Assembly (NCBI GenBank): GCA_041686735.1
Contig: JAWLDF010000005.1
Coordinates: forward strand, 70,029 to 134,028
Length of the DNA: 64,000 bases
Source of the DNA: Bacilli bacterium
Lineage (GTDB): Bacteria; Bacillota; Bacilli; JACDOE01
Direction of reading: 5' to 3'
How positions within the stretch are numbered: the first letter of the stretch is position 1; the number at the start of each line of letters is the position of its first letter. Shown here in pieces: positions 23,486 to 63,467 of the stretch. The notes below the pieces were generated by a model, which worked only from the letters and a program-made list of their open reading frames with translations, was not told where the DNA came from and made no database searches. The position numbers were made by a program, and so were the translations under genes.

Positions 23486-23505
23486 AAATTCAAGGGGGAA
23501 TTACA

Positions 23506-42534: not shown

Positions 42535-43629
42535 ATGAAACAGCAAATGGGCATTTTATTAAATACAGCTGTGTTAAAAAGAGAACTTCTTCGTTCCCCT
42601 GTATTTGAAAAGATTTACTTATACGAACGATTTGCAAAGCTCTATGATGTTGAGCCGATCTATTTCCCTCTCTCGGGTTTGGATCTGGAAAAACAGACGG
42701 TAAGCGGATATATATGGGATCAGGAAGAGAAAAAATTCAGGAGGGTTCGGCGCCCCCTCCCCCGCGTGATTCATAATCGTTTGCTCACCAGTCACCGAAA
42801 AATGAACAGAAAGCTGAAACAATTGAGTGAACATCCTGATGTCACCGTTTTTAATCCCGTCATCAATCGCAATAAATTGTTCCTTCACCAATATCTGTAC
42901 GAAAATGAAGAAATCCGGCCCCATCTTCCGGAAACACTCCCTTTTAATCAAGAAAACCTTCATCGCATGGAGGATGAACCGGCACTGTTCATCAAGCCGG
43001 CCATCGGATCAATCGGGCGGGGAATTTTTCTCCTTGAAAAAAAGGATGACAAAAAGTACCGCTATCTCAGTTTCACCAAAAAAACCGGCATCCTGCGAAA
43101 CAAAAACCTGTACAGCAGATTAAGAAAGATAACCCGTTCCCGACCTTATCTCATCCAAAAAGCCGTCTCCCTTGCAAAATACAGGGGACGCCCGTTCGAT
43201 TTGCGGGTGACCGTGCAAAAAATTGAGAAGGATCAATGGACCGTCACCGGAATGGTGGCTAAAGTGGCACCTGCCGGCTCCGTATTAACCAATCTGGGCA
43301 GAGGAGGACGTGCCGTTTCTTTTGAGAAAGCGATCAACCATGCTTTTGCCGGGAAAAGTGAAAAGGAACGAAAAAAAATCAAGGCAGGCATTGAGCATCT
43401 TTCCCTGTCCATTTGCAAACACCTCGAATTAAAATGGACGACTCTTGCCGATATCGGACTTGACATCGGACTGGATGAGAGCGGAAAACCCTGGTTCATT
43501 GAAGCCAATGTACGTGATCAGCGCTATTCTTTTCTGTCCGCAGGAGAACATGAACTTTTTCATCGGACCTACCGATACCCGATACAATACGCACGGCGCC
43601 TGCTTGACCAAGGTTCCGGCAATGCTTGA
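42535..43629 (+). CDS. YheC/YheD-family ATP-grasp-like protein (paralog 1)
   Basis: FIKPAIGSIGRGIF...PFDLRVTVQK...WFIEANVRD, typical of YheC/D ATP-grasp proteins. Confidence 0.7.
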   Translation: MKQQMGILLNTAVLKRELLRSPVFEKIYLYERFAKLYDVEPIYFPLSGLDLEKQTVSGYIWDQEEKKFRRVRRPLPRVIHNRLLTSHRKMNRKLKQLSEHPDVTVFNPVINRNKLFLHQYLYENEEIRPHLPETLPFNQENLHRMEDEPALFIKPAIGSIGRGIFLLEKKDDKKYRYLSFTKKTGILRNKNLYSRLRKITRSRPYLIQKAVSLAKYRGRPFDLRVTVQKIEKDQWTVTGMVAKVAPAGSVLTNLGRGGRAVSFEKAINHAFAGKSEKERKKIKAGIEHLSLSICKHLELKWTTLADIGLDIGLDESGKPWFIEANVRDQRYSFLSAGEHELFHRTYRYPIQYARRLLDQGSGNA

Positions 43630-48274: not shown

Positions 48275-48778
48275 TTATTTTGCAGTTCTCATTTTTTTCT
48301 TGGTCAGATAGTCGGTTTCATAATAGTGTAATTCTTCCCGTAAATATTCAAAAACTTTGGAGAGGGATAAAACCAGCCGGCGCAACTCGGGTGTTACCGG
48401 TTTGTGAAAAATAATCGCATCTTTTCCGGTATAGGAGTGACGGCCGTCCTCTTCGTAAACTTCTTGCTTGGGGTAAAAAAACTGATTGATGCAAGTGTGA
48501 TAAACCTGATACAATGATTCTTCAGCAAAGTCCCTGTTAAATTTGGCCCGACGCAAACTGATTCCCAGTTTTTCGCTGGCATTTTCGCAGTTGACCAGTA
48601 AATGACGAAGATCAGCAAGGAAGTCCCGGTAATAATGTTCATACTCTTCTTTATCACCGGATTGTGCAACCAGTTGATCAAGTGTGGTATTGTTTAAAAA
48701 CCGTTCGATGTCCATACTGACTTTCTTCAGACGATTGAATGACTCCTCACAAAGTGCTTTCAACTGCTTTTCAGGCAT
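48275..48778 (-). CDS. Hypothetical cytoplasmic protein
   Basis: 167 aa; ORF length and context only; no recognized motifs. Confidence 0.45.
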   Translation of the reverse strand: MPEKQLKALCEESFNRLKKVSMDIERFLNNTTLDQLVAQSGDKEEYEHYYRDFLADLRHLLVNCENASEKLGISLRRAKFNRDFAEESLYQVYHTCINQFFYPKQEVYEEDGRHSYTGKDAIIFHKPVTPELRRLVLSLSKVFEYLREELHYYETDYLTKKKMRTAK

Positions 48779-48890: not shown

Positions 48891-49682
48891 TTAATAACCG
48901 TTGGGGCGCCCGTAACTTCTGGCAAAACGCATCATGGTCTTATACATGGTTTTGTCCGAAAACCATTTGAGGGGATAAAATTGCGGACGACGTGAATTGA
49001 CTTCTATCACCCAGATATGATGGCCGGAGTCGATGGTCACATCTATACCCATTTCATGCATACCCGGATATTTACTGTTGAGGGTCTCGGCGATTTCCTT
49101 GCCCAGTTTCGCCAGTCTCTCTTGCATATCTTCGATCGCGGATTCATTCATTCCGAATCCTGTCAGCGTGTTTTCAAGGGTGTCCAGTTTCCCCCCCTGA
49201 TGATAATTGGTCACAATCTTTCCGGGAGCACCGATTTTGGAAAAAATGCCTGTACATGTCCATGGTCCGCGGGGTCTTCGCTGCATCATCATTCTCAAAT
49301 CAAAAGGGCGTCCGTTTGACGTGCCCAGTTCGATCCCTTCCTGAACAATGTACTTTTTCCCGGCGATTCTTGCTTTCATCAGCCGGAATAAATTGCCGAG
49401 TTGTTTAATCTGAACCTTTTTTGTCCCATCATGCAATAAATAACCGTTTGATAGACGCTCGACTCTCATCACACCCTTGCCATGCGTACCGATATTGGGT
49501 TTCGCATATAAGACCGGATACTGTTGAATCATTTTCTTTAGATTTGGCAGGGTGAGCCAATTTGTCTCCGGAAGATGTTGACGGATTTTGGCGTGCTGAC
49601 TCAGGAGATTGTGTACCTTCCACTTGCTTCGTACATGCCGGCTTTTGTAGTTTTTCACGATGTCATCACCTCTTAGTATCAT
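48891..49682 (-). CDS. YheC/YheD-family ATP-grasp-like protein (paralog 2)
   Basis: YAKPNIGTHGKGVMRV...PFDLRMMMQRR...HHIWVIEVNSRRP parallels paralog 1. Confidence 0.7.
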   Translation of the reverse strand: MILRGDDIVKNYKSRHVRSKWKVHNLLSQHAKIRQHLPETNWLTLPNLKKMIQQYPVLYAKPNIGTHGKGVMRVERLSNGYLLHDGTKKVQIKQLGNLFRLMKARIAGKKYIVQEGIELGTSNGRPFDLRMMMQRRPRGPWTCTGIFSKIGAPGKIVTNYHQGGKLDTLENTLTGFGMNESAIEDMQERLAKLGKEIAETLNSKYPGMHEMGIDVTIDSGHHIWVIEVNSRRPQFYPLKWFSDKTMYKTMMRFARSYGRPNGY

Positions 49683-49775: not shown

Positions 49776-50441
49776 TTATTGAAACGGTGTAATCGTGAGA
49801 TCTACGCTCCCCATTGCATCTCCATTTCCCGCATAAATATAAAAAGCATTCAGATATTGATTGGGGTTGGGTATGGTAAACGTCTCCCCTTTACGAACCC
49901 GCTGCGAAAAAAACACGCTGTCCATATCACTCCGGTTAACCAGAGCCTGTACATCAACGACATCCTTATCCGTCCCGCGCTGTTCAAACCGTTGCAATGT
50001 TTCCGCGTCATAATGAATCGCATTTACGGTAACCGATAATTTATTATATCCTGCAGGCAGAACCACTCGAAAAGTTTGATAAGAACGGTCAAAATAAAAA
50101 CTCATGTTCCGTTTTTCTCCGGGCTTTAAAGCCATGGTATGAAAACTGATTTTTTGTTCCTGTTCGTTCCAGGAAATTGCCGTGCGGGAATGTTCGGCAA
50201 CAAACCGCAACGGAACATAGGTTGTCCCCTCATAAATGAAACTGGTGGGTACGGTCGTTTTCCCGTTAAAAAACGTCTGTGACTCTACAAGATCATTTTC
50301 ACTGAACTGAAATTTCAGGTTCCAGCGTTCGACGCGAATGGTCTCGTAATAATACGCGGAGGTTGTCAACGGGATCGCCAGTAAAAAACCAATGACAAAT
50401 CCGATGAATCCTTTTTTCAAGGCCGGGTCATCTCCTCTCAA
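49776..50441 (-). CDS. Membrane-anchored protein with copper-amine-oxidase N-terminal-like (stalk) domain
   Basis: YVPLRFVAEHSRTAISWNEQEQKISF resembles Cu_amine_oxidN1. N-terminal TM. Confidence 0.5.
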   Translation of the reverse strand: MRGDDPALKKGFIGFVIGFLLAIPLTTSAYYYETIRVERWNLKFQFSENDLVESQTFFNGKTTVPTSFIYEGTTYVPLRFVAEHSRTAISWNEQEQKISFHTMALKPGEKRNMSFYFDRSYQTFRVVLPAGYNKLSVTVNAIHYDAETLQRFEQRGTDKDVVDVQALVNRSDMDSVFFSQRVRKGETFTIPNPNQYLNAFYIYAGNGDAMGSVDLTITPFQ

Positions 50442-50471
50442 GTTCAGATCGTATAAAAAATCGGGGAGTGG

Positions 50472-50690
50472 TTACCCCCCGATTACTGGAAGAAGCAAAT
50501 GGATGCGATCCCCTTCCCGAAGAAGGTGGTGTTCATCAACAATCCGGTCATTGACCGTGACCAGGGTCTCCTGATTCCATCCAACATTGAGACTTTCCAC
50601 AAAATTTTTGATGTTGAGACCTTCTTCAATGCGATGTTTTCCTGTTAAATCCTGTCGCCAGGGGATTAATGATATCACATCAACCTGCAT
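50472..50690 (-). CDS. MoaD/ThiS-family ubiquitin-like sulfur-carrier-type protein (C-terminal GG)
   Basis: About 72 aa from MQVDV, ending ...LLLPVIGG. A GGAGTGGAAAG RBS lies inside the 3' end of the AOR gene, and the start overlaps the AOR stop. Confidence 0.6.
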   Translation of the reverse strand: MQVDVISLIPWRQDLTGKHRIEEGLNIKNFVESLNVGWNQETLVTVNDRIVDEHHLLREGDRIHLLLPVIGG

Positions 50691-52392
50691 GAACACTTTC
50701 CACTCCGATAGTGAATAATTCATCCTGATCCACATCAAACACGGTACCGCTTGCGGGATTCACTTCTTCATAGAAATGTTCGGGCAGACGGTCATGGGCT
50801 CTGGTAAATCCGGCACGACGGTTAAAATCATGTTCTTCCTTCAAGGTTTGTTTGGCCAGATTTTTAATATCATCCGCCGTTACTTCAACTCCCACATATC
50901 CGGTAATCATGCGCGCAAGCATGTCAAAATGTTTACCGACGGCAGATGCAGCAAAGAAACAGATTCCCAGACTGTCATAGATGGTATTGAGTACCTGGGA
51001 CTTCTTAGAAGCCTCAACCTGTCCCTCCGGCGAATGGTGATCCATTTGCGCACGGATAGTCTGACCTGCGGTGTGGTCTGCTCCCATGGGGGATGTGGCA
51101 TAGGTGACACCCAGACCCTTAATGGCACGCGGATCATAGGCCGGCATAGCCTGTCCTTTTACAGTCGGTACTTTACGCACGCCGTAGATTTTACCGACCA
51201 GTTCGGCTCCGCCGCCGATAATACGTCCCATCGGAGTTCCTTTTTCCACTTCCAGCATGAGATTACGGGCTCCTTCAAAATCGCCGAATTCCAACAGGCC
51301 CGCTTCCATGGCGACACCAATGGCCGCACCGGTTTCGATCGTATCAATACCAATCTCATTACAGAGACGGTTCAATTCAACAATTTGGTCCATGTTGCCG
51401 ATGCCCAAGTTGGACCCCAAAAGCCCGATATTTTCATATTCAATCGGGGAAGTTACCGCTTTTCCCTGCTCGTCGGGATAGATATTGGAACAACGGATGG
51501 CACATCCCGGCATACAGTTGTGGGTCGGTGTTCCTTCTCCGCCCCGTTCAAGAATGATTTCACGCAGGGTTTCCCCGCTGATTTCCTTATAATGTTCGAA
51601 ACTTCCAGTTGAAAAATTGCGTGTAGGAAGCGCACCCAGTTTATTGGTGGTGCGAACCATAGCTGCCGTACCCAGTTCAGGGAAGAACTTGCCTGTTCCC
51701 GGATTTTCTCTAAGGTTGGTGGTGTACTGTTTCATCGCTTCCTTAAACATTTCCGGATCTTTCGGGCGATTACGTTCCACCCCTTCATCGTTAAACACAA
51801 TCGCTTTGATCCCCTTGGAACCGGCTACGGCACCCATTCCGCCCCGTCCGCAAAAACGGGTGGGAGATCCGTCCTTATCGGCATTGGCCATGGCCGCCGT
51901 GTTCATTTTCATTTCACCGGACACGCCGATCATATAATACCCGACGTTTTTTCCGTAACGGTCATATAAAACCCGAGCTGCTTCACTCATCGATTTTCCC
52001 AGAAGATCATCGGCTTTTTCAAATTTCACACCGTCTTTATCAATGTACACCGTGTAAAAATCGTCGCGAATGCCTTCAAAAATAATGGCACGAAGCCCCA
52101 GTCTGCCCATCTTGAGACCGGCCGTTCCTCCGGCATTACTTTCCTTGATTCCTCCGGTCAGCGGACTCTTGGCACCCAGTGAACTTCTTTCCGCACTGGA
52201 AGCCATCGATCCTGTCAATACCCCGTTGGCCAGTACTAATTTATTATGAGGCCCGAGGGGATGGCAGGTTGCAGGCACTTCATCATGAATAATCCTTGAA
52301 GTGAGGGATCTTCCGCCAAGTAAAAGCTGCTCCTTTGCTACCTCTTCTTCCTGATACGTCAATTGACTCATATTAATTCGCAGTATTTTCAT
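50680..52392 (-). CDS. Aldehyde:ferredoxin oxidoreductase family (tungsto/molybdopterin, 4Fe-4S)
   Basis: N-terminal MKILRINMSQ..., AOR_N and AOR pterin-binding blocks, and the Fe-S cysteines in CMPGCAIRC. About 570 aa. GGAG RBS. Confidence 0.85.
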   Translation of the reverse strand: MKILRINMSQLTYQEEEVAKEQLLLGGRSLTSRIIHDEVPATCHPLGPHNKLVLANGVLTGSMASSAERSSLGAKSPLTGGIKESNAGGTAGLKMGRLGLRAIIFEGIRDDFYTVYIDKDGVKFEKADDLLGKSMSEAARVLYDRYGKNVGYYMIGVSGEMKMNTAAMANADKDGSPTRFCGRGGMGAVAGSKGIKAIVFNDEGVERNRPKDPEMFKEAMKQYTTNLRENPGTGKFFPELGTAAMVRTTNKLGALPTRNFSTGSFEHYKEISGETLREIILERGGEGTPTHNCMPGCAIRCSNIYPDEQGKAVTSPIEYENIGLLGSNLGIGNMDQIVELNRLCNEIGIDTIETGAAIGVAMEAGLLEFGDFEGARNLMLEVEKGTPMGRIIGGGAELVGKIYGVRKVPTVKGQAMPAYDPRAIKGLGVTYATSPMGADHTAGQTIRAQMDHHSPEGQVEASKKSQVLNTIYDSLGICFFAASAVGKHFDMLARMITGYVGVEVTADDIKNLAKQTLKEEHDFNRRAGFTRAHDRLPEHFYEEVNPASGTVFDVDQDELFTIGVESVHAG

Positions 52393-52442
52393 AGTATACA
52401 CTCCTCTCCTCCCATCACTGCATTACTTCTATCTTACCATCT

Positions 52443-53678
52443 TTATGATTTGACGTGAATATGCATGTGCATTTCTTCCTCTGATTCCCACTTACCATTC
52501 TTCAATTGAACATAAACCCATATCGTGTTGACAAAAAACATTACGGCTGAAAAAACAAATAAACTTCGTATTCCCGCCCAACCGCTCAATACACCGCCCA
52601 CGACCGGCCCCAGCATATTTCCCAAAAACATGCTGCTGGTACTGTATCCATATGCCCTGCTCTCCATCCCTTCCGGTGCGTGTTTTCTCACAAGGGAATT
52701 GACGGAGGGAAGCAGTCCTCCCAGACACATTCCCAGTAAAAACCTTACGATAAGCAACTGCCATTCATTCACCACAAAAATATGGGGAACGGAAAACAAC
52801 GTTGCCCCGGCGAGGCTGTAGAACAGGACGCGATGTGAACCCGAATGATCTCCGATGCGTCCGAGAACCGGGGAAAACAGCATGTTGGCAAAACCGGTGA
52901 TGGACATGGCCAGCCCGGAAAAAAGCGCCACATACCCTCCGCCGCCGATCAGTTCGTTCACAAATATCGATAAAAAGGGAATGGTGCCCATCAGGGCAAA
53001 TTGAATCATAAACCCGGTTCCCATCAAAACACGAAGGGGACGGATACTGAAGATCGTGCGAAAATCGGTCCAGATATTGCCCTCCTGTTTTTTCTTCGGA
53101 TCGGGCCGGTTTTGTTCCTTGACCAGCATCAGGACCATGGCCGTGGATAAAAATAGTAATGTCCCGGTAACCGTAAAGATCATCCGGTATCCGAACATCT
53201 CCGCCATCATTCCGCCCAGAAACGGTCCCAGAATCGAGCCCGCCACCCCGCCGGAGTTTAAAGTTCCAAGGGCAAATCCGACCCGTTCTTTTGGTGTGTT
53301 TGTAGACATTAAGGCGATCGAAGCGGGAATAAATCCGGAGATTACTCCGTTCAACAGCCGTAACATCAAAAGATGGGCCGGAGACATGGCAAATCCCATC
53401 AAACCGGTGACCAGCGCCATCCCGAATCCGGATCGTAAAATCATAATTTTACGCCCTTTTTTATCGGCGAGATTTCCCCAGATCGGAGCAAATAGAAAAG
53501 CCGTAAGAAAATTGGCCCCAAAAATAATACCGGCCCAGAGATTTAATTCCCGGGCACCGGTGACTCCTAAATCCTCTTTTAAATACAGAGGGAGAAACGG
53601 CATGATCAGACTCATCGCCGCCATCACCAAAAACTGCGCAAACGTCAATATCAACAGATTGCGTTTCCAAACCGGCAT
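52443..53678 (-). CDS. MFS transporter
   Basis: 411 aa, 12 TM, GRKIMILRSG loop motif. Confidence 0.8.
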   Translation of the reverse strand: MPVWKRNLLILTFAQFLVMAAMSLIMPFLPLYLKEDLGVTGARELNLWAGIIFGANFLTAFLFAPIWGNLADKKGRKIMILRSGFGMALVTGLMGFAMSPAHLLMLRLLNGVISGFIPASIALMSTNTPKERVGFALGTLNSGGVAGSILGPFLGGMMAEMFGYRMIFTVTGTLLFLSTAMVLMLVKEQNRPDPKKKQEGNIWTDFRTIFSIRPLRVLMGTGFMIQFALMGTIPFLSIFVNELIGGGGYVALFSGLAMSITGFANMLFSPVLGRIGDHSGSHRVLFYSLAGATLFSVPHIFVVNEWQLLIVRFLLGMCLGGLLPSVNSLVRKHAPEGMESRAYGYSTSSMFLGNMLGPVVGGVLSGWAGIRSLFVFSAVMFFVNTIWVYVQLKNGKWESEEEMHMHIHVKS

Positions 53679-53780
53679 GGAAAGTCATCTCCTTACATGG
53701 ACCCATTATACTCCTCTTTTGCAAAAAAATCATCCGCGGGACACATAGATGAATGACTCTCCAGCCGGTCGGCAATCAGT

Positions 53781-55124
53781 TTATTTTTTCTTAACGGCGA
53801 CCCCTGCAGCCTGTTGAATCGGACTCCATACAGTGGAAAAAGGCGGTGCATAGGCGAGATCAAGTTCCTGTAGTTGGCGCAGTGTTAACTCCTGGTACAT
53901 AGCAGTGGCAAGTACATCCACCTGTTTGTCCACGCCCTCATATCCCACGAATTGTCCGCCGATCACTTTCTGCTCGTCCCGCGTGAATAAAAGTTTCACA
54001 TACAACGGTTTTGCATCCGGGTAATAGTGGGCGTGTTGCAGAGATTTAACGGAAACCACATCAAAATCGATACGGGCCTGTTCCGCTTCCCGTTCTCCCA
54101 TTCCGGTGCGCGCCACCTGCAAATCCATCACTTTAAACACGGCGGTACCCATGACGCCGGCAAAGCGGGCATATCCTCCCGCCATATTGGTGCCGGCCAC
54201 CCTTCCCTGCTTGTTGGCATGGGTTCCGAGGGGAACGTAATCATCTTCCTGTTTCAATCGGTGATACTGTACGGCACAGTCCCCGGCGGCATAGATGTCG
54301 GGCACACTCGTTTCCATTTTTTGATTCACCCGAATGGCTCCGCGTATCCCTGTTGCCACTCCCGCCTGTGCGGCAAGTTCACTGTTCGGTTTCACCCCTA
54401 CCGCCACCAGAACGAGATCGGCGGGATAGGAACCCTGATCAGTCACAACCGATAATCCATGCTCAGTCTTTTTGATTTCTCTCACTTCTTCATTTAACTT
54501 CAGGTTAATATGGCTACTGATATATTCCCTGACATGCTCCGATATGTCCGCATCCAGCGCCGTGCCGACCTGCCCTGTTTTTTCAATGACGGTCACATCC
54601 AGGTTACGGGCAGTGAGGGCTTCAGACATCTCCAATCCGATATAGCCGGCACCGATGATGACCGCCTTCCGTACTGGCTGTTGTTCCATATAGAGAGCGA
54701 TTTTTTTCGCATCCGCCATCGTTTTTAAGACAAAAACGCCATCTTCGTCCACTCCCGGCCACGGTGGAACAATCGGAACTGCTCCGGTGGCGATCAGCAA
54801 TTTATCATAAGGTTGATCGAAGGTTTCTCCCTTCGCCAGGTTTTTGACAGTTACGAATTTATTGGCCGGATCGATGCGGATAACTTCATGGTATGAACGG
54901 GCATCAATCTTGTTTTTTTCCCGAAACTGTTGTTCCGTACGGGCAACCAGTTTGTCCGGTGACGGTACGACCCCTTCCAGATAGTAGGGAAGTCCGCATT
55001 GAGCATAAGAAAAAGTATCTCCCTTTTCAAAAGCGAAAACTTCGGCATCCGGATCCAGTCTTTTGATCTGGGTCGCGGCACTCATGCCGGCTGCATCTCC
55101 ACCTATAATCACATACTTTGTCAT
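53781..55124 (-). CDS. CoA-disulfide reductase / NADH oxidase family flavoprotein
   Basis: GGDAAG FAD motif, redox-active single cysteine in SYAQCGLPY, second GxGxxG NAD motif (IIGAGYIGLE). 447 aa. Confidence 0.8.
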   Translation of the reverse strand: MTKYVIIGGDAAGMSAATQIKRLDPDAEVFAFEKGDTFSYAQCGLPYYLEGVVPSPDKLVARTEQQFREKNKIDARSYHEVIRIDPANKFVTVKNLAKGETFDQPYDKLLIATGAVPIVPPWPGVDEDGVFVLKTMADAKKIALYMEQQPVRKAVIIGAGYIGLEMSEALTARNLDVTVIEKTGQVGTALDADISEHVREYISSHINLKLNEEVREIKKTEHGLSVVTDQGSYPADLVLVAVGVKPNSELAAQAGVATGIRGAIRVNQKMETSVPDIYAAGDCAVQYHRLKQEDDYVPLGTHANKQGRVAGTNMAGGYARFAGVMGTAVFKVMDLQVARTGMGEREAEQARIDFDVVSVKSLQHAHYYPDAKPLYVKLLFTRDEQKVIGGQFVGYEGVDKQVDVLATAMYQELTLRQLQELDLAYAPPFSTVWSPIQQAAGVAVKKK

Positions 55125-55141
55125 GATCTGACACCCCTTTA

Positions 55142-56299
55142 CTATGGATTGTTTAAGCGATAGACTCGCATGATTTGTTCCGTTGTCTGCACAATCAAAT
55201 CATAAGACTCAGTAATTGCCTCATTCAGTTCCATCGGACGGTTGATAATGCTGAATACAGCCTCGATCCCTATATCCTGTACTCCCCCGAGATCGTCACC
55301 GATGCTGCCGACAACGGCAATCACAGGGACCTGAAATCGACCGGCCCGCCTGGCTACTCCTGCGGGAGCCTTACCGCTTAAGGTTTGCCCGTCCATTTTC
55401 CCTTCCCCTGTAATCACCAGGTCAGTTCCGGGTAAAACATCATTTAACCCGATTGTATCCATAACGAGGTCAATCCCATGATTCATTGTTCCCTTAAACA
55501 ATGAGAGAAAAACGGATGCAATCCCTCCGGCCGCACCAGAGCCGGGTAAATTCCTGACAGAAACGGCAGCAACCTTTTCGAGGATATCTACATAGTGAGT
55601 CAGGTTCAGTTCCAGTTTTTCCACCATATCCGGATCAGCACCTTTTTGCGGTGCAAATACACGGACAGCCCCTCTCTCACCCAGTAAGAGATTATTCACA
55701 TCAGAAGCAAGGGTGAACTCTGTTTCATCAAGACGTGCATCCCTGCCGCCGGTTTCTATCCGTTCTAATCGTGCAAGTGCTCCTCCCCCGGGAGGCAGAT
55801 CTTTCCCTTCTGCATCGAGCAATCGTATCCCCAGCGCCTGTAGAATTCCCGCCCCTCCGTCACTTGTCGCGCTTCCTCCCAGACCGAGGATCATTCGGCG
55901 ACATCCCTGATCAAGGGCATGTACGATCAGCTGGCCGGTCCCGTAACTGGATGCATGCCAGGGATTCCTCTCCTTTTCCTGCAAAAGCGGGAGACCTGAA
56001 GCAGCCGCAGTCTCTATCACCGCTGTTTTTATCCCCCGTTCATCGTCAATCACGCCGAATTTTGCCCGAATCGGTCGCATCAACGGATCCATCACTTCCG
56101 CATCCACATACCGGCCCCCCATGGCTTCCACCAGACAGTCGACCGTGCCTTCGCCACCGTCGGCGAGAGGTTTTTTCACAACGCGAGCACCGGGACAACC
56201 ACGGATCACCCCTTCCTCCATTGCCTCAGCTACCTTCGGACTGAGCAGGCTTCCTTTGAAAGAATCCGGAGCTATCAAAATTTTCAATCTCCTGATCAC
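55142..56299 (-). CDS. Glycerate kinase
   Basis: IAPDSFKGSL...ADGGEGTV...GxGK family blocks. 385 aa. Confidence 0.85.
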   Translation of the reverse strand: MIRRLKILIAPDSFKGSLLSPKVAEAMEEGVIRGCPGARVVKKPLADGGEGTVDCLVEAMGGRYVDAEVMDPLMRPIRAKFGVIDDERGIKTAVIETAAASGLPLLQEKERNPWHASSYGTGQLIVHALDQGCRRMILGLGGSATSDGGAGILQALGIRLLDAEGKDLPPGGGALARLERIETGGRDARLDETEFTLASDVNNLLLGERGAVRVFAPQKGADPDMVEKLELNLTHYVDILEKVAAVSVRNLPGSGAAGGIASVFLSLFKGTMNHGIDLVMDTIGLNDVLPGTDLVITGEGKMDGQTLSGKAPAGVARRAGRFQVPVIAVVGSIGDDLGGVQDIGIEAVFSIINRPMELNEAITESYDLIVQTTEQIMRVYRLNNP

Positions 56300-56453
56300 C
56301 TCCGCCCCCGGAAGTTTATGTTTACCTCTATCATGTCCATTGTACCATGATCTCCCATCTCAATTTTAAAAGAAAAATGAAAAGAGAATGAACAGTCCTC
56401 CATGCTTTAGGACCATTCATTCTCACCCGTACATATCTTTCGACAAAACCGGA

Positions 56454-57731
56454 TCAACTTTCCGTGCTGCACCATTTTACCAGGGTATTGGCTACGATTT
56501 CCGCACATTCAAAAACCCTGTCCAGTTCAATATATTCATTGGGAAAATGGGCCATCGCAGTAACTCCGGGTCCGAATACAATCGACGGCGTTTCCCCCAC
56601 CCGGGTCAACAAACCGCCGTCCGTTCCCCACGGAGAAGCCTCCACTACCGGGTCTTTATGTAAAATACGGCGGTAACTGTCGGTTAATACATTCATCAGT
56701 TCATGTTCCGGATCAATCGATCCGGGAACCCAGCGGGCACCGAACCATTCCAGTTGCGGCGGATGCTGTTTAAACCATTCATCCTCCTGTTTCAGGGATT
56801 CCAGGCAGCGTGCCATTTCCTCTTTTGCATCTTCCATGCTTTCGTGAGGGGCAACTCCCATCCGGCCCTCAAGCGTCACCAGGTCGGCTACGGAAGATGG
56901 CCATTCTCCCCCGCGAATCACACCGACATTGATCGGGATCGGGATGGGAATGGCATTATAAAGGGGATCATCAATACGATCATTCCGTTCTTTTTCCAGT
57001 TGACGAACAACTTCAACCACTTTCATCGATTTTTCTATGGCACTTACCCCTTCATAGCGGGTACCACCGTGGGCTGAACGTCCCTTCACTTTAATGCGGA
57101 ACCACATTGAACCCTGTTGCTTCGGAAAAATTTTCATCTGTGTCGGTTCCGGAATCAGTGCCGCATCCGCTCTGTATCCCCGCAGCACCGTAGCCAGCGT
57201 ACCGGCTCCGCCGCTCTCTTCTTCGACTACACTTTGAAAAATGACATCTCCTTTAAGGCGAACGCCCAGCTCTTTTAAACACTGGATGGCGGCCATCAGA
57301 GCGACGTTGCCTCCTTTCATATCGGTGACGCCACGTCCGTACATTTTCCCGTCTTCCACCTTGCCGCTGAAGGGATCAAGTTCCCATTGCTCAGGGTCAC
57401 CTGCAGGAACCACGTCAATATGGCAGTTGAGAATGATGGAACGCCCGCCGCCTTTTCCTTTCCATACGCCGACAACATTGGGGCTTCCTTCAAACCGAGT
57501 ACGAGGCGAATAAAAATAAGGATGTTTTTTTAGCGCTTCTCCGTCCGGTTCCCAGACGTCCACTTCCAGTCCCATTTCGTACAGCCGCTCAGCCACGATT
57601 TCCTGAGCCTGCTTCTCATTACCCTGAGTACTGTCAGCCTGTACTACTTTTTGCAAAAAGCGTATCACTTCATCACGATTGGTTTCCATCCATTGATGGA
57701 TAAGTTCCCCTAATTGTTGTTCCTGTGTCAA
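56454..57731 (-). CDS. M20-family metallo-deacylase (ArgE/DapE-like; position-equivalent to yodQ)
   Basis: Metal-binding HIDVV, GVTDMKGG and EEESGG motifs. Confidence 0.8.
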   Translation of the reverse strand: MTQEQQLGELIHQWMETNRDEVIRFLQKVVQADSTQGNEKQAQEIVAERLYEMGLEVDVWEPDGEALKKHPYFYSPRTRFEGSPNVVGVWKGKGGGRSIILNCHIDVVPAGDPEQWELDPFSGKVEDGKMYGRGVTDMKGGNVALMAAIQCLKELGVRLKGDVIFQSVVEEESGGAGTLATVLRGYRADAALIPEPTQMKIFPKQQGSMWFRIKVKGRSAHGGTRYEGVSAIEKSMKVVEVVRQLEKERNDRIDDPLYNAIPIPIPINVGVIRGGEWPSSVADLVTLEGRMGVAPHESMEDAKEEMARCLESLKQEDEWFKQHPPQLEWFGARWVPGSIDPEHELMNVLTDSYRRILHKDPVVEASPWGTDGGLLTRVGETPSIVFGPGVTAMAHFPNEYIELDRVFECAEIVANTLVKWCSTES

Positions 57732-57778
57732 TATCCTCCCTCCTCGATCTATAAAAAATTAATTCTCATCCGAATCTC

Positions 57779-58441
57779 TCACTCAAAAACCTCTAATTGA
57801 TCAGGAATGATCAGTTCTGCCCCGGTGGAACCCACCACCTGATCCACTGTAACATGTTTATGCATTTCTTTCAGAATCAATCCTTCTTCCTCTACCCCGA
57901 TGACGGCCATTTCGGTGATAATCATATTGACACAGCGCGGAGCGGTTAACGGCAAAGAGCATGTTTCAAGAATCTTGGGACTTCCGTTCTTACTGGTATG
58001 ACTGGTCGTAATGATCACTTTTTTCGCCTTCTGGGCAAGATCGATCGCACCGCCCATGCCGGGAACCCGTTTGCCCGGAACGATCCAGTTGGCCAGATCG
58101 CCGCGACTGCTCACTTCCAGCGCACCGAGAATGGTCATGTCAAGCAATCCTCTGCGGATTATACCGAAAGCCACCGAACTGTCAAAATAGGATGCCCCTT
58201 TGACCGCAGTCACCGGAAATCCTCCCGCATTACACAACATCGGATTTTCCTCTCCCGGCTTGGGAGAGGGACCGGAACCGAGAATCCCATTTTCCGCATG
58301 AAACATTACATATACATCCTCAGAAATATAGTCTGCCACCAGCGTAGGAATGCCGATGCCGAGATTGACAATCATTCCGTTTTTTACTTCTTTTGCTGCC
58401 CTGCGGGCGATGATGTGCCGGTAGTCGGTTCCCACATCCAT
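57779..58441 (-). CDS. 3-oxoacid CoA-transferase subunit B (yodR-like)
   Basis: VNLGIGIPT and the ENG (catalytic Glu) region of CoA-transferase B subunits. Confidence 0.85.
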   Translation of the reverse strand: MDVGTDYRHIIARRAAKEVKNGMIVNLGIGIPTLVADYISEDVYVMFHAENGILGSGPSPKPGEENPMLCNAGGFPVTAVKGASYFDSSVAFGIIRRGLLDMTILGALEVSSRGDLANWIVPGKRVPGMGGAIDLAQKAKKVIITTSHTSKNGSPKILETCSLPLTAPRCVNMIITEMAVIGVEEEGLILKEMHKHVTVDQVVGSTGAELIIPDQLEVFE

Positions 58442-59121
58442 CTCCAGTTCACCCCCTGACTGGGTATGACCATATCAACAAACGCACCCGGTGTTACAAT
58501 TTCTTCCGGATCCAGCTCTCCCATATCCACGATCTCATCCACCTCAGCAATGGTAAAATCTCCGGCCATGGCCACCAGCGGATTAAAGTTTCGCGCACTG
58601 GTATCATAGATCAGGTTGCCGTACGGATCAGCTTTCCTGGCATGGACAATTGCAATTTCCGCCGTAAGGGCAGTTTCAATCAAATAGGTTTTTCCGTTTA
58701 CGGTCGCCTTTTGTTTTCCTTCTTCGGCGATGGTACCCAGGCCTACATCAACCAGGATACCGCCGAGTCCCATCCCCCCGGCCCGCACCCGTTCGGCAAG
58801 TGTACCTTGAGGGGAAAATTCGACCTCCATTTTTCCACGGGTCATCAGCTCTCCGGCAACGGGATTGGAACCGATATGGGAGGCAATCACTTTTTTAACA
58901 CGTCCTGCCGTAACCAGACGCCCGATGCCGATATCGGGAAAAGCCATATCATTGCCGATAATGGTTAAATGATCGATTCCTTTATCGAGAATCCCCTGTA
59001 TAAGGGAAGGCGGATTACCTACACCGCCGAATCCGCCAAACATTAATGTCATTCCGCTATAAAAATGTTCCATTGCCTGTTCAAGCGTTGCTATTTTAGA
59101 TGGTAAGGATTCTTTCAACAT
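58384..59121 (-). CDS. 3-oxoacid CoA-transferase subunit A (yodS-like); its 3' end overlaps subunit B by 58 nt
   Basis: GGFGGVGNP motif. Start MLKESL with an AAAAGGGG RBS. The longer track start has none. Confidence 0.8.
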   Translation of the reverse strand: MLKESLPSKIATLEQAMEHFYSGMTLMFGGFGGVGNPPSLIQGILDKGIDHLTIIGNDMAFPDIGIGRLVTAGRVKKVIASHIGSNPVAGELMTRGKMEVEFSPQGTLAERVRAGGMGLGGILVDVGLGTIAEEGKQKATVNGKTYLIETALTAEIAIVHARKADPYGNLIYDTSARNFNPLVAMAGDFTIAEVDEIVDMGELDPEEIVTPGAFVDMVIPSQGVNWRWMWEPTTGTSSPAGQQKK

Positions 59122-59158
59122 TGTGACACCCCTTTTACGGTGTATCCTGAATTGCAGA

Positions 59159-60514
59159 TTATCCTGCATGAATATGGCCGTAAATGCCCTCTTGCTCCAG
59201 TTCGCTTTCCAACTCATACACCGACTCATCCAAAATTTCAATGATCCTGTCGATTTCTTCTTTTTTAACAATCAGCGGGGGAGCGAGCAGGATTGCGTCT
59301 CCCGAGTGTCCTTCCAGAGCACCGGACGCCGCATAAATCATCACACCTTTTGAAAATGCTTTTTCTACCAGTCTCACAGTCACCTTTTGCTCCGGAGCGA
59401 AGGGAGTCCGGGTTTGTGTATTTGAAACCAGTTCAATTCCACACATGAGACCCAACCCGCGCACGTCACCGACGATCGGATGACGCTGGGCAAATGCATA
59501 CAGTTGATTCAGCAAATACTCTCCGGTTCGTGCAGAATTTTCAATGAGTGCGTGATTCTCGATATGTTCCATCACCGCCAGGGCAACCGCCGATGAGAGC
59601 GGGTTCCCGCTGTAAGTATGGCCCGACATGACGAGTCCCGACCCCTGCCTGATCACTTCAATAATGCGATCACTGGCGATGGTGGCCGAAATCGGAGCAT
59701 ATCCGGCGCTTAATCCTTTTCCTGTCGCAATGATATCCGGAATCACATTCCAGTGTTCCATGGCAAAACGTTTACCGGTACGACCGATCCCCGTCATGAC
59801 TTCATCGGCGATCAACAATATATGATAACGGTCACAGATCTCGCGAATCTCCTTATAATAATCGGGTGGTGGTACAATCGCGCCTCCCGAAGCACCGATG
59901 ACCGGTTCAACGATAAATGCCGCGATATATTCGGGACCGATCCGCAGTATCGCATTTTCTAATTCCCTTGCACACAACATATTGCAGGACGGATATCTTG
60001 AAGCAAACGGACAGCGGTAACAATGGGGCGGAGATGCCACCGGCAAATCATCCAGCAACGGAGCAAAACGCTTCCGCCGTGCCGTATGACCGGACATGGA
60101 TAATGCTCCCATCGTGATCCCGTGATAACTCATCCAGCGGGATAACACCCGCGTTTTTGTTCCCTGTCCCTGTTCCTGCCAGTACTGGATTGCGATTTTC
60201 ATGGCCGTTTCTGTTGCTTCCGAACCGCTATTGACGAAAAAAACCTGATTCAAATCTGCCGGAGCCCACTCACTTAATTTTTGTGCAAGAAGTTCGGCCG
60301 GCTCGTTGGTAAACTGGGCACGGTATGAAAAAGCTACCTTATTGGCCTGCTCCATCATGACCCTGGAAATTTCCTCCACACCGTGTCCGATGCTGGCCGT
60401 GACTGCTCCGGAACATGCATCGATATACTGATTTCCTTCTGTATCATAGAGGTAAATTCCTTTACCGTAACTGACTAGCGGATATTCTTTGTTCAACTCA
60501 GGTTTAATGACATT
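59159..60514 (-). CDS. Class III (omega) aminotransferase (yodT-like)
   Basis: PLP fold-type I blocks (GSEATETAMK; ADEVMTGIGRTG; TGKGLSAG). GTG start with a GGAG RBS. Confidence 0.85.
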   Translation of the reverse strand, partial: NVIKPELNKEYPLVSYGKGIYLYDTEGNQYIDACSGAVTASIGHGVEEISRVMMEQANKVAFSYRAQFTNEPAELLAQKLSEWAPADLNQVFFVNSGSEATETAMKIAIQYWQEQGQGTKTRVLSRWMSYHGITMGALSMSGHTARRKRFAPLLDDLPVASPPHCYRCPFASRYPSCNMLCARELENAILRIGPEYIAAFIVEPVIGASGGAIVPPPDYYKEIREICDRYHILLIADEVMTGIGRTGKRFAMEHWNVIPDIIATGKGLSAGYAPISATIASDRIIEVIRQGSGLVMSGHTYSGNPLSSAVALAVMEHIENHALIENSARTGEYLLNQLYAFAQRHPIVGDVRGLGLMCGIELVSNTQTRTPFAPEQKVTVRLVEKAFSKGVMIYAASGALEGHSGDAILLAPPLIVKKEEIDRIIEILDESVYELESELEQEGIYGHIHAG

Positions 60515-60784
60515 AGACACAAGCAGTTCACTCCTCTCTACATCGCTTTTGAAGCAAACACACAGGAGCAATCCAGCAAATGATGCATACTGTCCCTGTA
60601 ACCTCATACTATTACATCGTCAAATTTCCCACCATACTCCGTCATGAAACAATTTTTTTCACCTTTTTTATACACTTGGTATAAACCGGAGGGATATCTT
60701 TCTTCCGCTCCCCTGCTATGCTTTTCCCTGCTAATGTGACATAATGAATGTAAAAGCGGGTCAGATGGACTCGGGGGTGAGCGG

Positions 60785-62446
60785 ATGTCTATCACGATCG
60801 AGGAAGCGTTGCAACTTCCCATCATGAAAGAAACGAAATTGGTAGCCGGACAAAAAGGGATCGGCAATTCCATCAAATGGGTCACAATTGTAGAAGTGGT
60901 AGAGGACATTTCGCGGTTATCGGAAGGTGAATTCCTGATTACCACCGGCTATGGATTGGACCAGAATGATCTGATGCGTCATACTTTCATCGATAAACTT
61001 ATGGCGCAGAAACTTTCCGGACTCGCAATTCATACAGGTTTTTATCTCAAAGAAATTCCGCAGGAATTTATCGATGCAGCCAACCGCCATGGTTTTCCCA
61101 TCATCGAAATTCCGATGAAATTCAACTTTTCCATGATCACCAAGGCGATCCTGCAGCAGATCGTGAACCGGCAAATGCAAATGCTTGAGTATTCCGAGGA
61201 CATTCACCAGCGTTTTACCCGGCTGGTTCTCGCCAATCTCGGACTTCCCTCGATCGCCGACACCTTGTACCAGTTAACCGGAGGAACCGTTCGCATTTAT
61301 AATGACATCGGCGAAGAACTTTTTGTTTCCCATGACCGGGACAACCCCGGCAACCTAGAAGAAATTCGTTCGATCTATGATAAGTTGCAGGAAGCGGGAA
61401 AAGTGGAAGAGATGTTTAAATTAAAAGAAATGGTGGAACATGAGTTTTCCATTGACGATGAAGAGGTAAAAGCGGTGTTACAACCTGTCGTCGCCAACGA
61501 TTATAATTATGGATTCATCACGGTGGTCAAATCCCTGTCGTCATGGGAAGACCTGGATTACTTGGCCATTTCTCATGCGGCAACGGTCTGCGCCATTGAA
61601 TTTTTGAAACAGGCCGCCGTCTCTGAGACAGAAATGCGCATGCGCGGGGATTTCCTGGAGGAATTACTCAGTGGTGATGTCCATCATTCGGTACGTCTGA
61701 TTGAACGGGGAAAAATGCTCGGATATGACTTGACCGGAACCCATGCCGTCATTTGTTTTCAACTCCATTTTTCCAGCCAGGAACAGATGGATACCGAATC
61801 CCAGCACTATCGGGACAAGTTGTACCACACCGTAGAATATATTATCCAGCAACAAAATCAGCATGCAATTTTGCGTCAGCGCCATAACACTTTGATCCTG
61901 CTGGTCCGGTGTGATCAATACCATGGGGAACATTTGTATCGCATCGCAAAGGAAGTGTTGCATCACTGGGAGTATTATCACCCTTCCCTTCCCGTCTCCA
62001 TCGGTATTGGAAATCGCACTTCGTCGGTGGATGCCATTGCAAAAAGTGCTAGGGAAGCGGAGTACGCCCTGCAATACGGAAGCCTGCTTCCTCATCACCT
62101 TCCCATCTACCATTTTGCTGATCTTGAACCCTATCATTTACTCATTGAAATGATGGAAAATGATGTGGACCTGACTTCCTATTACAGACGTACACTGGGA
62201 AAATTGCTTGAAACCAAAAAAGAGGACGACCGGGATCATCCGTTGCTCGATACGCTGGAGATGTATCTGCTTCATAATATGAACATGCAGAGTACTTCGG
62301 CACAGCTTCATATTCATCGTCACACCTTAAAATACCGCCTGCAACAAATCGAAAAAAAGACAGGCAAAAGCCTGTCTTCACCGCATCATCGTCTTCAATT
62401 GCAACTTGCCGTCATGGCATACCGGATGATGAATAAAACCGAGTGA
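60785..62446 (+). CDS. PucR-family transcriptional regulator (full length)
   Basis: N-terminal PucR domain, central GGDEF-like region, C-terminal HTH (LHIHRHTLKYRLQQIE). 553 aa. GGGGGTGAG RBS. Confidence 0.8.
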   Translation: MSITIEEALQLPIMKETKLVAGQKGIGNSIKWVTIVEVVEDISRLSEGEFLITTGYGLDQNDLMRHTFIDKLMAQKLSGLAIHTGFYLKEIPQEFIDAANRHGFPIIEIPMKFNFSMITKAILQQIVNRQMQMLEYSEDIHQRFTRLVLANLGLPSIADTLYQLTGGTVRIYNDIGEELFVSHDRDNPGNLEEIRSIYDKLQEAGKVEEMFKLKEMVEHEFSIDDEEVKAVLQPVVANDYNYGFITVVKSLSSWEDLDYLAISHAATVCAIEFLKQAAVSETEMRMRGDFLEELLSGDVHHSVRLIERGKMLGYDLTGTHAVICFQLHFSSQEQMDTESQHYRDKLYHTVEYIIQQQNQHAILRQRHNTLILLVRCDQYHGEHLYRIAKEVLHHWEYYHPSLPVSIGIGNRTSSVDAIAKSAREAEYALQYGSLLPHHLPIYHFADLEPYHLLIEMMENDVDLTSYYRRTLGKLLETKKEDDRDHPLLDTLEMYLLHNMNMQSTSAQLHIHRHTLKYRLQQIEKKTGKSLSSPHHRLQLQLAVMAYRMMNKTE

Positions 62447-63392: not shown

Positions 63393-63467
63393 TGGCTGGG
63401 CAGGCTGGGTTCGAACCAGCGCATCACGGAGTCAAAGTCCGTTGCCTTACCACTTGGCTACTGCCCA
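63393..63467 (-). tRNA. tRNA-Gln (anticodon UUG)
   Basis: Reverse complement TGGGCAGTAGCCAAGTGGTAAGGCAACGGACTTTGACTCCGTGATGCGCTGGTTCGAACCCAGCCTGCCCAGCCA folds as a cloverleaf with a CTTTGAC anticodon loop and encoded CCA. It is near-identical in form to Bacillus tRNA-Gln. Confidence 0.85.

What the first reader, a model, noticed from the sequence alone, without database searches (positions are those of the whole stretch)
50472..53678. AOR-family (tungsten-type) aldehyde oxidoreductase with overlapping MoaD-like gene and upstream MFS transporter
AOR-family enzymes are characteristic of anaerobes and archaea, so one in an apparently aerobic spore-former is unusual. A MoaD/ThiS-like GG-terminal protein overlaps the AOR stop and has its RBS inside the AOR gene. 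This suggests a dedicated cofactor-maturation or sulfur-transfer partner, as in some bacterial AOR operons. An MFS transporter lies immediately upstream on the same strand.
Basis: partly seen in the sequence, partly recalled or inferred. Interest (0 to 1): 0.6.

Follow-up and report, generated by a model that had tools for sequence, protein, structure and literature searches.

The report
Tungsten-type aldehyde oxidoreductase with ThiS-like partner
This is an intact two-gene module, a single-subunit tungsten-type aldehyde oxidoreductase plus a small sulfur-carrier-like helper gene, of a kind already described in bacteria including aerobic spore-formers, so it is a new member of a known group and not a new system.

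Summary
On the minus strand lie an MdtG-like MFS transporter (52443-53678), an AOR/WOR-family large subunit (570 aa, 50680-52392) and a 72-aa ThiS/MoaD-like gene ending in Gly-Gly (50472-50690). The small gene's ATG overlaps the AOR stop by 11 nt. A strong terminator hairpin follows it.

The AOR keeps the family's catalytic and pterin-contact residues and four invariant cysteines. Its model matches solved W-AORs at TM 0.88-0.89.

The AOR plus ThiS-like pair recurs in 10 of 12 related loci with unrelated flanks, and the Gly-Gly end is invariant. The MFS gene recurs only in the 85%-identical, fully syntenic relative.

Published work already covers this arrangement. It is a "Class I WOR" (WorL alone) with an adjacent ThiS-like "WorX" (Putumbaka 2026). 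aorD/aorE are MoaD-like maturation factors (Arndt 2019, Winiarska 2022). A W-AOR from an obligately aerobic spore-former is known (BmWOR, Thorgersen 2022).

The one unusual detail is the Fe-S motif. It reads C-x3-C-x3-C where the six solved structures I could check have C-x2-C-x3-C, and it is conserved across this roughly 570-aa Bacillota clade, which looks uncharacterised.

Verdict: new member of a known kind, low-to-moderate interest.

The parts
50680..52392 (-). worL / AOR-family large subunit: 570 aa, 61.5 kDa, predicted W-bis-pyranopterin and one [4Fe-4S] cluster
   Evidence: Pfam AFOR_N 2.2e-57 and AFOR_C 7e-77. PDB sequence hits: 9mqx_D 5.7e-72, 1aor 1.2e-67. AF2 model pTM 0.89; Foldseek TM 0.89 to 9mqx_D and 0.88 to 1aor. 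Conserved T242, E320, Y419, H440 and C293, C297, C301, C478. RBS plus ATG at 52392.
50472..50690 (-). worX: 72-aa ThiS/MoaD-like beta-grasp protein ending in Gly-Gly, translationally coupled to worL by an 11-nt overlap
   Evidence: PF02597 1.8e-7. AF2 pLDDT 92.4; Foldseek top hits are MoaD 2q5w_D, ThiS 3cwi and MoaD 3rpf_C. C-terminal GG invariant in 18 homologues. Follows the AOR gene in 10 of 12 related loci.
50459..50484 (-). Intrinsic-terminator-like hairpin that ends the transcription unit
   Evidence: Stem of 11 pairs (6 G-C), 4-nt loop, then TTTTAT.
52393..52442 (-). 50-nt MFS-worL intergenic spacer that carries the worL ribosome-binding site; no hairpin or terminator
   Evidence: Sequence read directly. 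No terminator-like site was called here.
52443..53678 (-). MdtG-like DHA1-type MFS efflux transporter; probably co-transcribed, but a lineage-specific neighbour and not part of the conserved module
   Evidence: MFS_1 8.5e-67; MdtG model 299 bits, below its 571 cut-off. Present next to the AOR only in the 85% relative. Absent.

Best explanation
The locus encodes a Class I tungsten-containing oxidoreductase: a WorL large subunit alone, with no polyferredoxin or flavoprotein subunit. It comes with its ThiS-like accessory gene worX.

Inferred from family knowledge: WorL binds a metal-bis-pyranopterin cofactor and one [4Fe-4S] cluster. It oxidises aldehydes to carboxylic acids and passes the electrons to a ferredoxin encoded elsewhere.

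Shown here: all residues used for this chemistry are present. The cluster motif has an unusual C-x3-C-x3-C...C spacing.

Inferred for WorX: it is most likely a maturation factor and not a subunit. Its Gly-Gly terminus would be adenylated and thiocarboxylated by a MoeB/ThiF-type enzyme encoded elsewhere. It would then donate sulfur for the dithiolene groups of the two pyranopterins that each WorL needs. The start/stop overlap couples its synthesis to that of WorL.

The MFS gene upstream is probably co-transcribed in this lineage, but it is an incidental, lineage-specific neighbour.
For: Identity of WorL:
- Pfam domains.
- PDB sequence matches to six W-AOR structures at 1e-56 to 1e-72.
- AF2 plus Foldseek TM 0.85-0.89 to 9mqx, 1aor, 9g7j, 1b25 and 8c0z.
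- PfAOR T243, E313, Y427, H448, C494, R76 and N93 and both pterin motifs align to invariant residues.
- Three invariant Cys align with the FOR cluster ligands.

Class I:
- No Fer4 or flavoprotein subunit gene lies adjacent.
- No CxxCxxCxxxCP motif occurs in any frame of the window.

WorX:
- Beta-grasp model with pLDDT 92; nearest structures are MoaD and ThiS.
- The profile is equidistant from E. coli MoaD and ThiS, 95% and 94%.
- The GG terminus is invariant.
- It sits next to the AOR gene in 10 of 12 related loci with unrelated flanks. In all eight Bacilli-type loci examined, plus the window, the two genes overlap by 4-23 nt.

Literature:
- WorX is defined as a ThiS-like gene beside Class I WORs, predicted to act in pterin biosynthesis (PMC13328260).
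- MoaD-like AorD/AorE are absent from purified AOR (PMC6365974).
- Co-expressing aorDE raised specific activity from 4.5 to 16 U/mg (PMC9295118, Table 1).
Against: - No E1 (MoeB/ThiF), MoaE, MoeA, tupABC/modABC or ferredoxin gene lies in the 64-kb window, so the partners are only assumed.
- No Moco riboswitch is present in the window or in the 12 related loci.
- Start/stop overlap implies roughly equimolar synthesis. That fits a stoichiometric partner or chaperone at least as well as a catalytic sulfur carrier.
- Two relatives at about 52% identity (Desulfotomaculum nigrificans, Paradesulfitobacterium) have no adjacent worX, so WorX is not indispensable in cis.
- No one has shown biochemically what WorX does.
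- Metal identity (W or Mo) and substrate are unknown.
Confidence: 0.75

Rival explanations
1. WorX is a stoichiometric partner of WorL: a cofactor-insertion chaperone or transient subunit that holds or hands over the pyranopterin. It does not carry sulfur.
For: In every Bacilli-type locus the two genes overlap by 4-23 nt, which suggests translational coupling and near-equimolar output. The WorL N-terminal domain is itself built from two beta-grasp modules that bind the pterin (PMC1949818), so a beta-grasp protein that binds pterin is conceivable.
Against: The C-terminal Gly-Gly and the preceding MoaD/ThiS-like tail (VN...GD.I.LL.P..GG) are the most conserved part of the protein. These are the hallmarks of E1-activated carriers. 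AorD/E were not found in purified AOR from Aromatoleum (PMC6365974).
Confidence: 0.15
2. The small gene is simply the genome's housekeeping MoaD or ThiS that happens to sit next to the AOR gene. It has no dedicated link to this enzyme.
For: It hits both the ThiS and the MoaD models, and sources annotate relatives variously as ThiS or MoaD. The rest of the genome could not be searched for a second moaD.
Against: It scores far below both equivalog cut-offs: thiS 19.4 against 37.45, moaD_arch 19.5 against 49.5. No moaE, moaA/C, thiF/G or other Moco or thiamine genes are nearby. It travels with the AOR gene through many unrelated genomic contexts.
Confidence: 0.05
3. MFS, AOR and WorX form a functional aldehyde-detoxification and efflux operon, in which the transporter exports the acid product or the toxic substrate.
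For: The genes share a strand. The gap is 50 nt with no terminator. The only strong terminator follows worX. A TATAAT box lies upstream of the MFS gene at 53710-53705. The same order occurs in the 85% relative.
Against: In that relative the whole region is syntenic, so the adjacency carries no information. The MFS gene is absent next to the AOR in Microaerobacter (76%), Ammoniphilus, Caldalkalibacillus, Effusibacillus, Tepidibacillus and the more distant loci.
Confidence: 0.1
4. The enzyme uses molybdenum, or either metal, instead of tungsten, as was argued for E. coli YdhV.
For: No tungstate transporter is in the window. Sequence alone cannot tell W from Mo. PMC13328260 discusses a WOR that incorporates Mo (YdhV, Class V).
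Against: According to PMC13328260, virtually all microbes with Class I-IV WORs carry TupABC and are assumed to use W. All characterised Class I enzymes contain W, including the one from an aerobic Brevibacillus (PMC9424855).
Confidence: 0.1

Closest known systems
Class I WOR with WorX, e.g. Cetobacterium somerae CsWOR87 with adjacent worX and thiF (Putumbaka et al. 2026, PMC13328260)
   Same: A single WorL gene with no WorS, and a ThiS-like gene immediately adjacent. The predicted electron acceptor is ferredoxin. WorX is thought to act in pterin processing and not to be a subunit.
   Different: No thiF or E1 gene is adjacent here. WorL is only about 30% identical to the clade 87 structures. 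It is about 35 aa shorter and has C-x3-C-x3-C cluster spacing. worX overlaps the worL stop codon.
BmWOR of Brevibacillus massiliensis (clade 83B; Thorgersen et al. 2022, PMC9424855)
   Same: A single-subunit WOR in a spore-forming member of the Bacilli. This shows that such enzymes work, with W and ferredoxin, in an obligate aerobe.
   Different: BmWOR has a calculated mass of 65 kDa, against 61.5 kDa here. It is a lone gene beside a regulator and tupABC, and no ThiS-like gene is reported. No Brevibacillus protein is among the 120 closest homologues at 51% identity or more. Whether the two share a clade is unresolved.
Pyrococcus furiosus AOR (1aor) and FOR (1b25)
   Same: Same fold (TM 0.88 and 0.85). 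Same catalytic Glu/His/Tyr/Thr, pterin motifs and fourth cluster Cys. The cluster-loop sequence is most like FOR (CGNVVLDAEGQ against CSNIYPDEQGK).
   Different: 30% identity. There is one extra residue between the first two cluster cysteines. The C-terminus is shorter. The archaeal enzymes have no adjacent WorX (PMC13328260 notes that WorX is missing in the archaeal WOR clusters).
AorD/AorE of Aromatoleum aromaticum AOR (Arndt 2019, PMC6365974; Winiarska 2022, PMC9295118)
   Same: MoaD-like genes in the same operon as the AOR. They are not in the purified enzyme, and co-expressing them improves specific activity.
   Different: They accompany a three-subunit, NAD-linked Class III enzyme (AorABC), and there are two copies. 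Here a single copy accompanies a single-subunit enzyme.
MoaD (molybdopterin synthase small subunit) and ThiS (thiamine sulfur carrier)
   Same: Beta-grasp fold, a conserved C-terminal ...GD.(V/I)....P..GG tail, and similar size.
   Different: The protein falls below the equivalog thresholds of both families and is equidistant from them. It is not next to moaE, thiG or thiF, and it is genomically tied to worL.

Membership tests
AOR/WOR family (WorL large subunit) | AFOR_N (PF02730) plus AFOR_C (PF01314) domain architecture | tested here: met
   2.2e-57 and 7e-77, both far above the gathering scores.
AOR/WOR family (WorL large subunit) | Three-domain AOR fold | tested here: met
   AF2 pTM 0.89. 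Foldseek TM 0.85-0.89, E 1e-36 to 1e-40, to 9mqx_D, 1aor, 9g7j, 1b25 and 8c0z.
AOR/WOR family (WorL large subunit) | Four Cys that ligate the [4Fe-4S] cluster (PfAOR C288, C291, C295, C494; C-x2-C-x3-C...C) | tested here: met
   Four invariant Cys are present (C293, C297, C301, C478), but the spacing is C-x3-C-x3-C. The best local alignment, to FOR, places one inserted residue between Cys1 and Cys2. 119 of the 120 closest homologues share this spacing. Actual ligation was not tested.
AOR/WOR family (WorL large subunit) | Conserved active-site and pterin residues (T243, E313, Y427, H448; R76, N93; DxxGxD and DxxGxC motifs; PfAOR numbering, as listed in PMC13328260 and PMC10413684) | tested here: met
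   All align to invariant residues of the clade. The first motif reads NEIGID, with Asn in place of Asp338, as it does in the solved W-AORs 9mqx and 9g7j.
AOR/WOR family (WorL large subunit) | Contains W-bis-pyranopterin and oxidises aldehydes | not testable with these tools
   Needs metal analysis and enzyme assays.
Class I WOR (Putumbaka et al. 2026) | WorL alone: no adjacent WorS polyferredoxin, WorN or WorABC genes | tested here: met
   The neighbours are an MFS transporter, CoA-disulfide reductase, glycerate kinase, a Cu_amine_oxidN1 protein and a YheC/D ATP-grasp protein. No ferredoxin-type Cys motif occurs anywhere in the window.
Class I WOR (Putumbaka et al. 2026) | Ferredoxin is the electron acceptor | not testable with these tools
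   No ferredoxin gene is in the window. An assay is needed.
WorX (ThiS-like protein next to worL) | ThiS/MoaD-family beta-grasp protein | tested here: met
   PF02597 at 32.1 bits (cut-off 22.5). AF2 pLDDT 92, with MoaD and ThiS as the top structural hits.
WorX (ThiS-like protein next to worL) | Encoded beside worL, and the adjacency is conserved | tested here: met
   10 of 12 related loci with different flanks; absent in two Desulfotomaculum and Paradesulfitobacterium loci.
MoaD/ThiS sulfur carriers | C-terminal Gly-Gly available for adenylation and thiocarboxylation | tested here: met
   GG is invariant in 18 sequences and is followed directly by the stop codon.
MoaD/ThiS sulfur carriers | Thiocarboxylate formation by a MoeB/ThiF-type E1, and sulfur delivery to a synthase (MoaE or ThiG) | not testable with these tools
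   No E1, MoaE or ThiG gene is in the window. The full genome is not available.
MoaD (equivalog) / ThiS (equivalog) | Score above the NCBIfam equivalog or subfamily cut-off | tested here: not met
   thiS TIGR01683 scores 19.4 against 37.45. moaD_arch TIGR01687 scores 19.5 against 49.5.
WOR clade 83B (BmWOR-like, O2-tolerant) | Phylogenetic placement with BmWOR, Thermus and Bacillus clade 83B sequences | tested here: inconclusive
   The clade 83B species list includes Anaerobacillus and Tepidibacillus species that also carry 64-66% homologues of this protein. It contains no Desulfotomaculum, although D. nigrificans has a 52% homologue. The Haloferax WOR83 structure scores lower (194 bits) than the clade 87 structures (232-246 bits).
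MFS-AOR functional operon | Conserved linkage of the MFS gene to worL | tested here: not met
   Found only in the fully syntenic 85% relative and absent in all other loci examined.

The most novel reading that the evidence does not exclude
The roughly 570-aa Bacillota clade, with its invariant H-x-C-x3-C-x3-C cluster motif and a translationally coupled WorX, could be a functionally distinct WOR type that nobody has characterised. Examples would be an O2-tolerant enzyme of aerobic or microaerophilic Bacilli with altered cluster properties, or a system where WorX does something other than standard molybdopterin-synthase chemistry, such as sulfurating the W site or acting as a cofactor-insertion chaperone.
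Probability: 0.15. Interest if true: 0.55.

Novelty: new member of a known kind. Interest (0 to 1): 0.25.

Why it matters
The locus adds one more Bacillaceae genome to the growing list of non-anaerobe lineages with WOR enzymes. It also gives a clean, minimal two-gene worL-worX unit with its own terminator, which could serve to test what WorX does. That question is open: the 2026 classification paper states that WorX's function is unknown. The clade-wide C-x3-C-x3-C cluster motif is a small, testable departure from the spacing in the six solved structures I could check. None of this changes current understanding, because the enzyme class, the accessory gene and their presence in aerobic spore-formers are all published.

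Tried and rejected
- Moco/Tuco riboswitch: none in the window at gathering threshold, none in 50300-55400 at E<=1, none in 12 related loci.
- Tungstate or molybdate transport, Moco biosynthesis, E1 and ferredoxin genes: Pfam on essentially all ORFs of 90 aa or more found none. No CxxCxxCxxxCP motif occurs in any frame.
- CoA-disulfide reductase (53781-55124) as a WorN/AorC-like flavoprotein partner: rejected. It passes a CoADR equivalog cut-off (NF007123, 462 against 458), is separated from worL by the MFS gene, and is not linked to the AOR outside the syntenic relative.
- MFS as part of the system: rejected on conservation.
- Assigning a clade number (1-92): the supplementary tables of PMC13328260 are truncated or irrelevant. 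The clade 83 species list is suggestive in both directions. Unresolved.
- The genome-contig scan with a single protein returned only 2 loci, so contexts were gathered with the look-up of encoding contigs instead.
- The word-index search with WorX alone found only 1 relative. A profile search found 18 and an exhaustive phmmer search found 20 clusters. The top phmmer hit, P0139, is a 903-aa low-complexity repeat protein and is spurious.
- An alternative alignment of the cluster loop to Haloferax WOR83 pairs Thr290 with Cys1 and makes C301 a compensating ligand. I considered it less likely than the FOR alignment, whose downstream residues match much better.
Full report
OBSERVATION

The minus strand of 50472-53678 carries three co-oriented ORFs.

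The first is an MFS transporter (52443-53678, 411 aa). MFS_1 scores 8.5e-67, and the best NCBIfam model is MdtG at 299 bits, below its equivalog cut-off of 571.

The second is an AOR-family protein. It is listed from a GTG at 52401, but an ATG at 52392 is preceded by GGGAGGAGAGGAG. That start gives 570 aa (61.5 kDa), the same length as the closest homologues.

The third is a small ORF. It is listed as 88 aa from 50738. Alignment with homologues shows that the real product is 72 aa, starting at the ATG at 50690 and ending in ...PVIGG.

This ATG overlaps the AOR TGA by 11 nt (ATGCAGGTTGA). It has a GGAGTGG Shine-Dalgarno-like motif 9 nt upstream, inside the AOR gene.

A terminator-like hairpin of 11 pairs plus a T-run (50484-50459) overlaps the small gene's stop codon.

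Only 50 nt, with no hairpin, separate the MFS stop from the AOR start.

THE ENZYME

Pfam gives AFOR_N (2.2e-57) and AFOR_C (7e-77).

Sequence search of the PDB hits six solved W-AOR-family structures at 1e-56 to 1e-72. These include 9mqx_D, 1aor, 1b25, 8c0z, 9g7j and 9q1t.

An AF2 model (pTM 0.89) superposes on 9mqx_D, 1aor, 9g7j, 8c0z and 1b25 with TM 0.85-0.89 at 30-32% identity.

Using the 1aor alignment, the residues that Putumbaka et al. list as conserved in aldehyde-oxidising WORs (T243, E313, Y427, H448) all align to residues that are invariant in a 16-sequence alignment of the clade. The same holds for R76, N93, the RxxGRGG loop, the two pterin motifs and the fourth cluster ligand C494.

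One detail departs from the norm. The three N-terminal cluster cysteines are spaced C293-x3-C297-x3-C301, within an invariant TH.CMPGC.I.CSN motif. The six solved structures whose motif I could check all have C-x2-C-x3-C. Five of them I read from the alignments, and AorB from PMC10413684. That paper also states that the same conserved cysteine motif is present in virtually all family members (99%).

The best local alignment is to P. furiosus FOR (C-PYCNMPCGNVVLDAEGQ against CMPGCAIRCSNIYPDEQGK). It implies a one-residue insertion between the first two ligands.

119 of the 120 closest homologues (51% identity or more) have this spacing, and none has the canonical one.

No polyferredoxin, flavoprotein subunit or ferredoxin gene is adjacent or anywhere in the window. 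In the 2026 scheme this is therefore a Class I WOR, meaning WorL alone.

THE SMALL GENE

It matches Pfam ThiS (32.1 bits, cut-off 22.5). It is far below the NCBIfam thiS and moaD_arch cut-offs.

Its AF2 model (pLDDT 92.4) is a beta-grasp. The nearest solved structures are MoaD (2q5w_D, 3rpf_C), ThiS (3cwi, 1zud) and archaeal MoaD/SAMP proteins.

A profile of 18 homologues is equally similar to E. coli MoaD and E. coli ThiS, at 95% and 94% hhalign probability. The similarity is concentrated in the C-terminal VN...GD.I.LL.P..GG tail.

The terminal Gly-Gly is invariant.

An exhaustive phmmer search of 1.84 billion representatives finds only about 20 clusters. This is therefore a small, divergent subfamily.

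CONSERVATION OF THE PAIR

I examined 12 distinct related loci. A GG-terminal ThiS-like ORF directly follows the AOR gene in these ten:
- the 85% Bacillaceae MAG
- Microaerobacter geothermalis, 76%
- Ammoniphilus, 75%
- Caldalkalibacillus uzonensis, 75%
- an uncultured Bacillaceae MAG, 69%
- Effusibacillus dendaii, 70%
- Tepidibacillus marianensis, 65%
- a Negativicutes MAG, 53%
- a Dethiobacter MAG
- a metagenomic Clostridiaceae-type contig

It is absent in Desulfotomaculum nigrificans and Paradesulfitobacterium.

The flanking genes differ in nearly every case. In all Bacilli-type loci the two genes overlap by 4, 11 or 23 nt. The two-gene unit is therefore the conserved module.

The MFS gene recurs only in the 85% relative, where the whole region from the CoA-transferase to the subtilase is syntenic. 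That adjacency carries no functional information.

WHAT IS ALREADY KNOWN

- Putumbaka et al. 2026 (PMC13328260) define Class I WORs as WorL alone. [quoted passage not shown]
- Arndt et al. 2019 (PMC6365974) described the MoaD-like aorD/aorE genes in the Aromatoleum AOR operon. Their products are absent from the purified enzyme.
- Winiarska et al. 2022 (PMC9295118, Table 1) showed that including aorDE raised the specific activity of recombinant AOR from 4.5 to 16 U/mg.
- Thorgersen et al. 2022 (PMC9424855) purified a W-containing, air-active WOR from the obligately aerobic spore-former Brevibacillus massiliensis. They listed many Bacillus, Brevibacillus, Caldalkalibacillus and Thermus species in clade 83B.

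The "dedicated MoaD-like partner" is a named, if functionally unresolved, feature.

MECHANISM

Shown here:
- an intact WorL with all cofactor residues
- a GG-terminal beta-grasp partner conserved in cis
- translational coupling
- a terminator that closes the unit

Inferred from family knowledge:
- WorL oxidises aldehydes at a W-bis-pyranopterin site and passes electrons through its [4Fe-4S] cluster to ferredoxin.
- WorX is activated at its Gly-Gly end by a MoeB/ThiF-type enzyme and supplies dithiolene sulfur for the two pyranopterins that each enzyme molecule needs.

The main rival is that WorX is a stoichiometric chaperone or transient subunit. The gene overlap favours this rival. The conserved carrier-type tail and the Aromatoleum purification data argue against it.

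Metal identity, substrate and O2 tolerance cannot be read from the sequence. Neighbouring genes in relatives hint at alcohol or amino-acid-derived aldehydes, but they are not consistent. Examples are a Zn-ADH in Caldalkalibacillus, two Fe-ADHs in Paradesulfitobacterium, and acyl-CoA enzymes in Effusibacillus.

CLADE

The protein is only 30-32% identical to any solved WOR. It is not clearly closer to the Haloferax clade 83 structure (194 bits) than to the clade 87 structures (232-246 bits).

No Brevibacillus protein is among the 120 closest homologues. BmWOR is also larger, at 65 kDa calculated.

The clade 83B species list contains Anaerobacillus and Tepidibacillus species that also carry 64-66% homologues of this protein. 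It contains no Desulfotomaculum. I could not resolve whether this clade is 83B or another of the 92 clades. No characterised enzyme is among the 120 closest homologues.

VERDICT

This is a genuine, well-formed worL-worX module. It is a new member of a known kind. Modest extra interest comes from the variant Fe-S motif of its uncharacterised clade and from its suitability for testing WorX function.

Noticed in passing
window 51490-51516 (WorL residues 293-301); P0001-P0120: Cluster-binding motif TH.CMPGC.I.CSN with C-x3-C-x3-C spacing. The six solved AOR-family structures whose motif I could check have C-x2-C-x3-C. The variant spacing is conserved in 119 of the 120 closest homologues. One metagenomic homologue (P0048) has Arg in place of the first Cys.
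   Followed up: partly
window 55142-62446: The same strand upstream carries a catabolic-looking run: class-III aminotransferase, CoA-transferase A/B, M20 peptidase, glycerate kinase and CoA-disulfide reductase. A divergent PucR-type regulator lies at 60785-62446. An aminotransferase could generate aldehyde or semialdehyde substrates. The run is syntenic only in the 85% relative.
   Followed up: partly
window 15441-15679 (-) and 16693-16982 (+): Two T-box leaders. One lies upstream of a class I aminoacyl-tRNA synthetase of 1048 aa (12294-15440). The other lies upstream of a PALP-family enzyme (16953-18071).
   Followed up: no
window 8292-12037 (-): An overlapping gene pair: an ERCC3/XPB-like helicase (569 aa) followed by a 679-aa protein whose only Pfam hit is a Helicase_C_3 domain.
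   Followed up: no
window 21435-24462 (+): 2-oxoacid or acetoin dehydrogenase E1-alpha, E1-beta and E2 genes, with no adjacent E3.
   Followed up: no
window 31055-32875 (+), 38539-39486 (+), 29846-30349 (+), 33186-33704 (-), 40840-41526 (+): Sizeable ORFs (167-606 aa) with no Pfam match at E<=1e-6.
   Followed up: no
window 42535-43629 (+) and 48891-49682 (-): Two YheC/D-type ATP-grasp genes, plus a DUF3907 gene (48275-48778) and a subtilase.
   Followed up: no
L011 1416-3829; L009 4903-5892: In Paradesulfitobacterium two Fe-type alcohol dehydrogenase genes, under a sigma-54 activator, sit directly upstream of the homologous AOR. In Caldalkalibacillus a Zn-type alcohol dehydrogenase does. This hints at alcohol-to-aldehyde-to-acid routes in some members of the clade.
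   Followed up: no
window 63396-63467 (-): A tRNA gene (Rfam RF00005, 67.8 bits).
   Followed up: no
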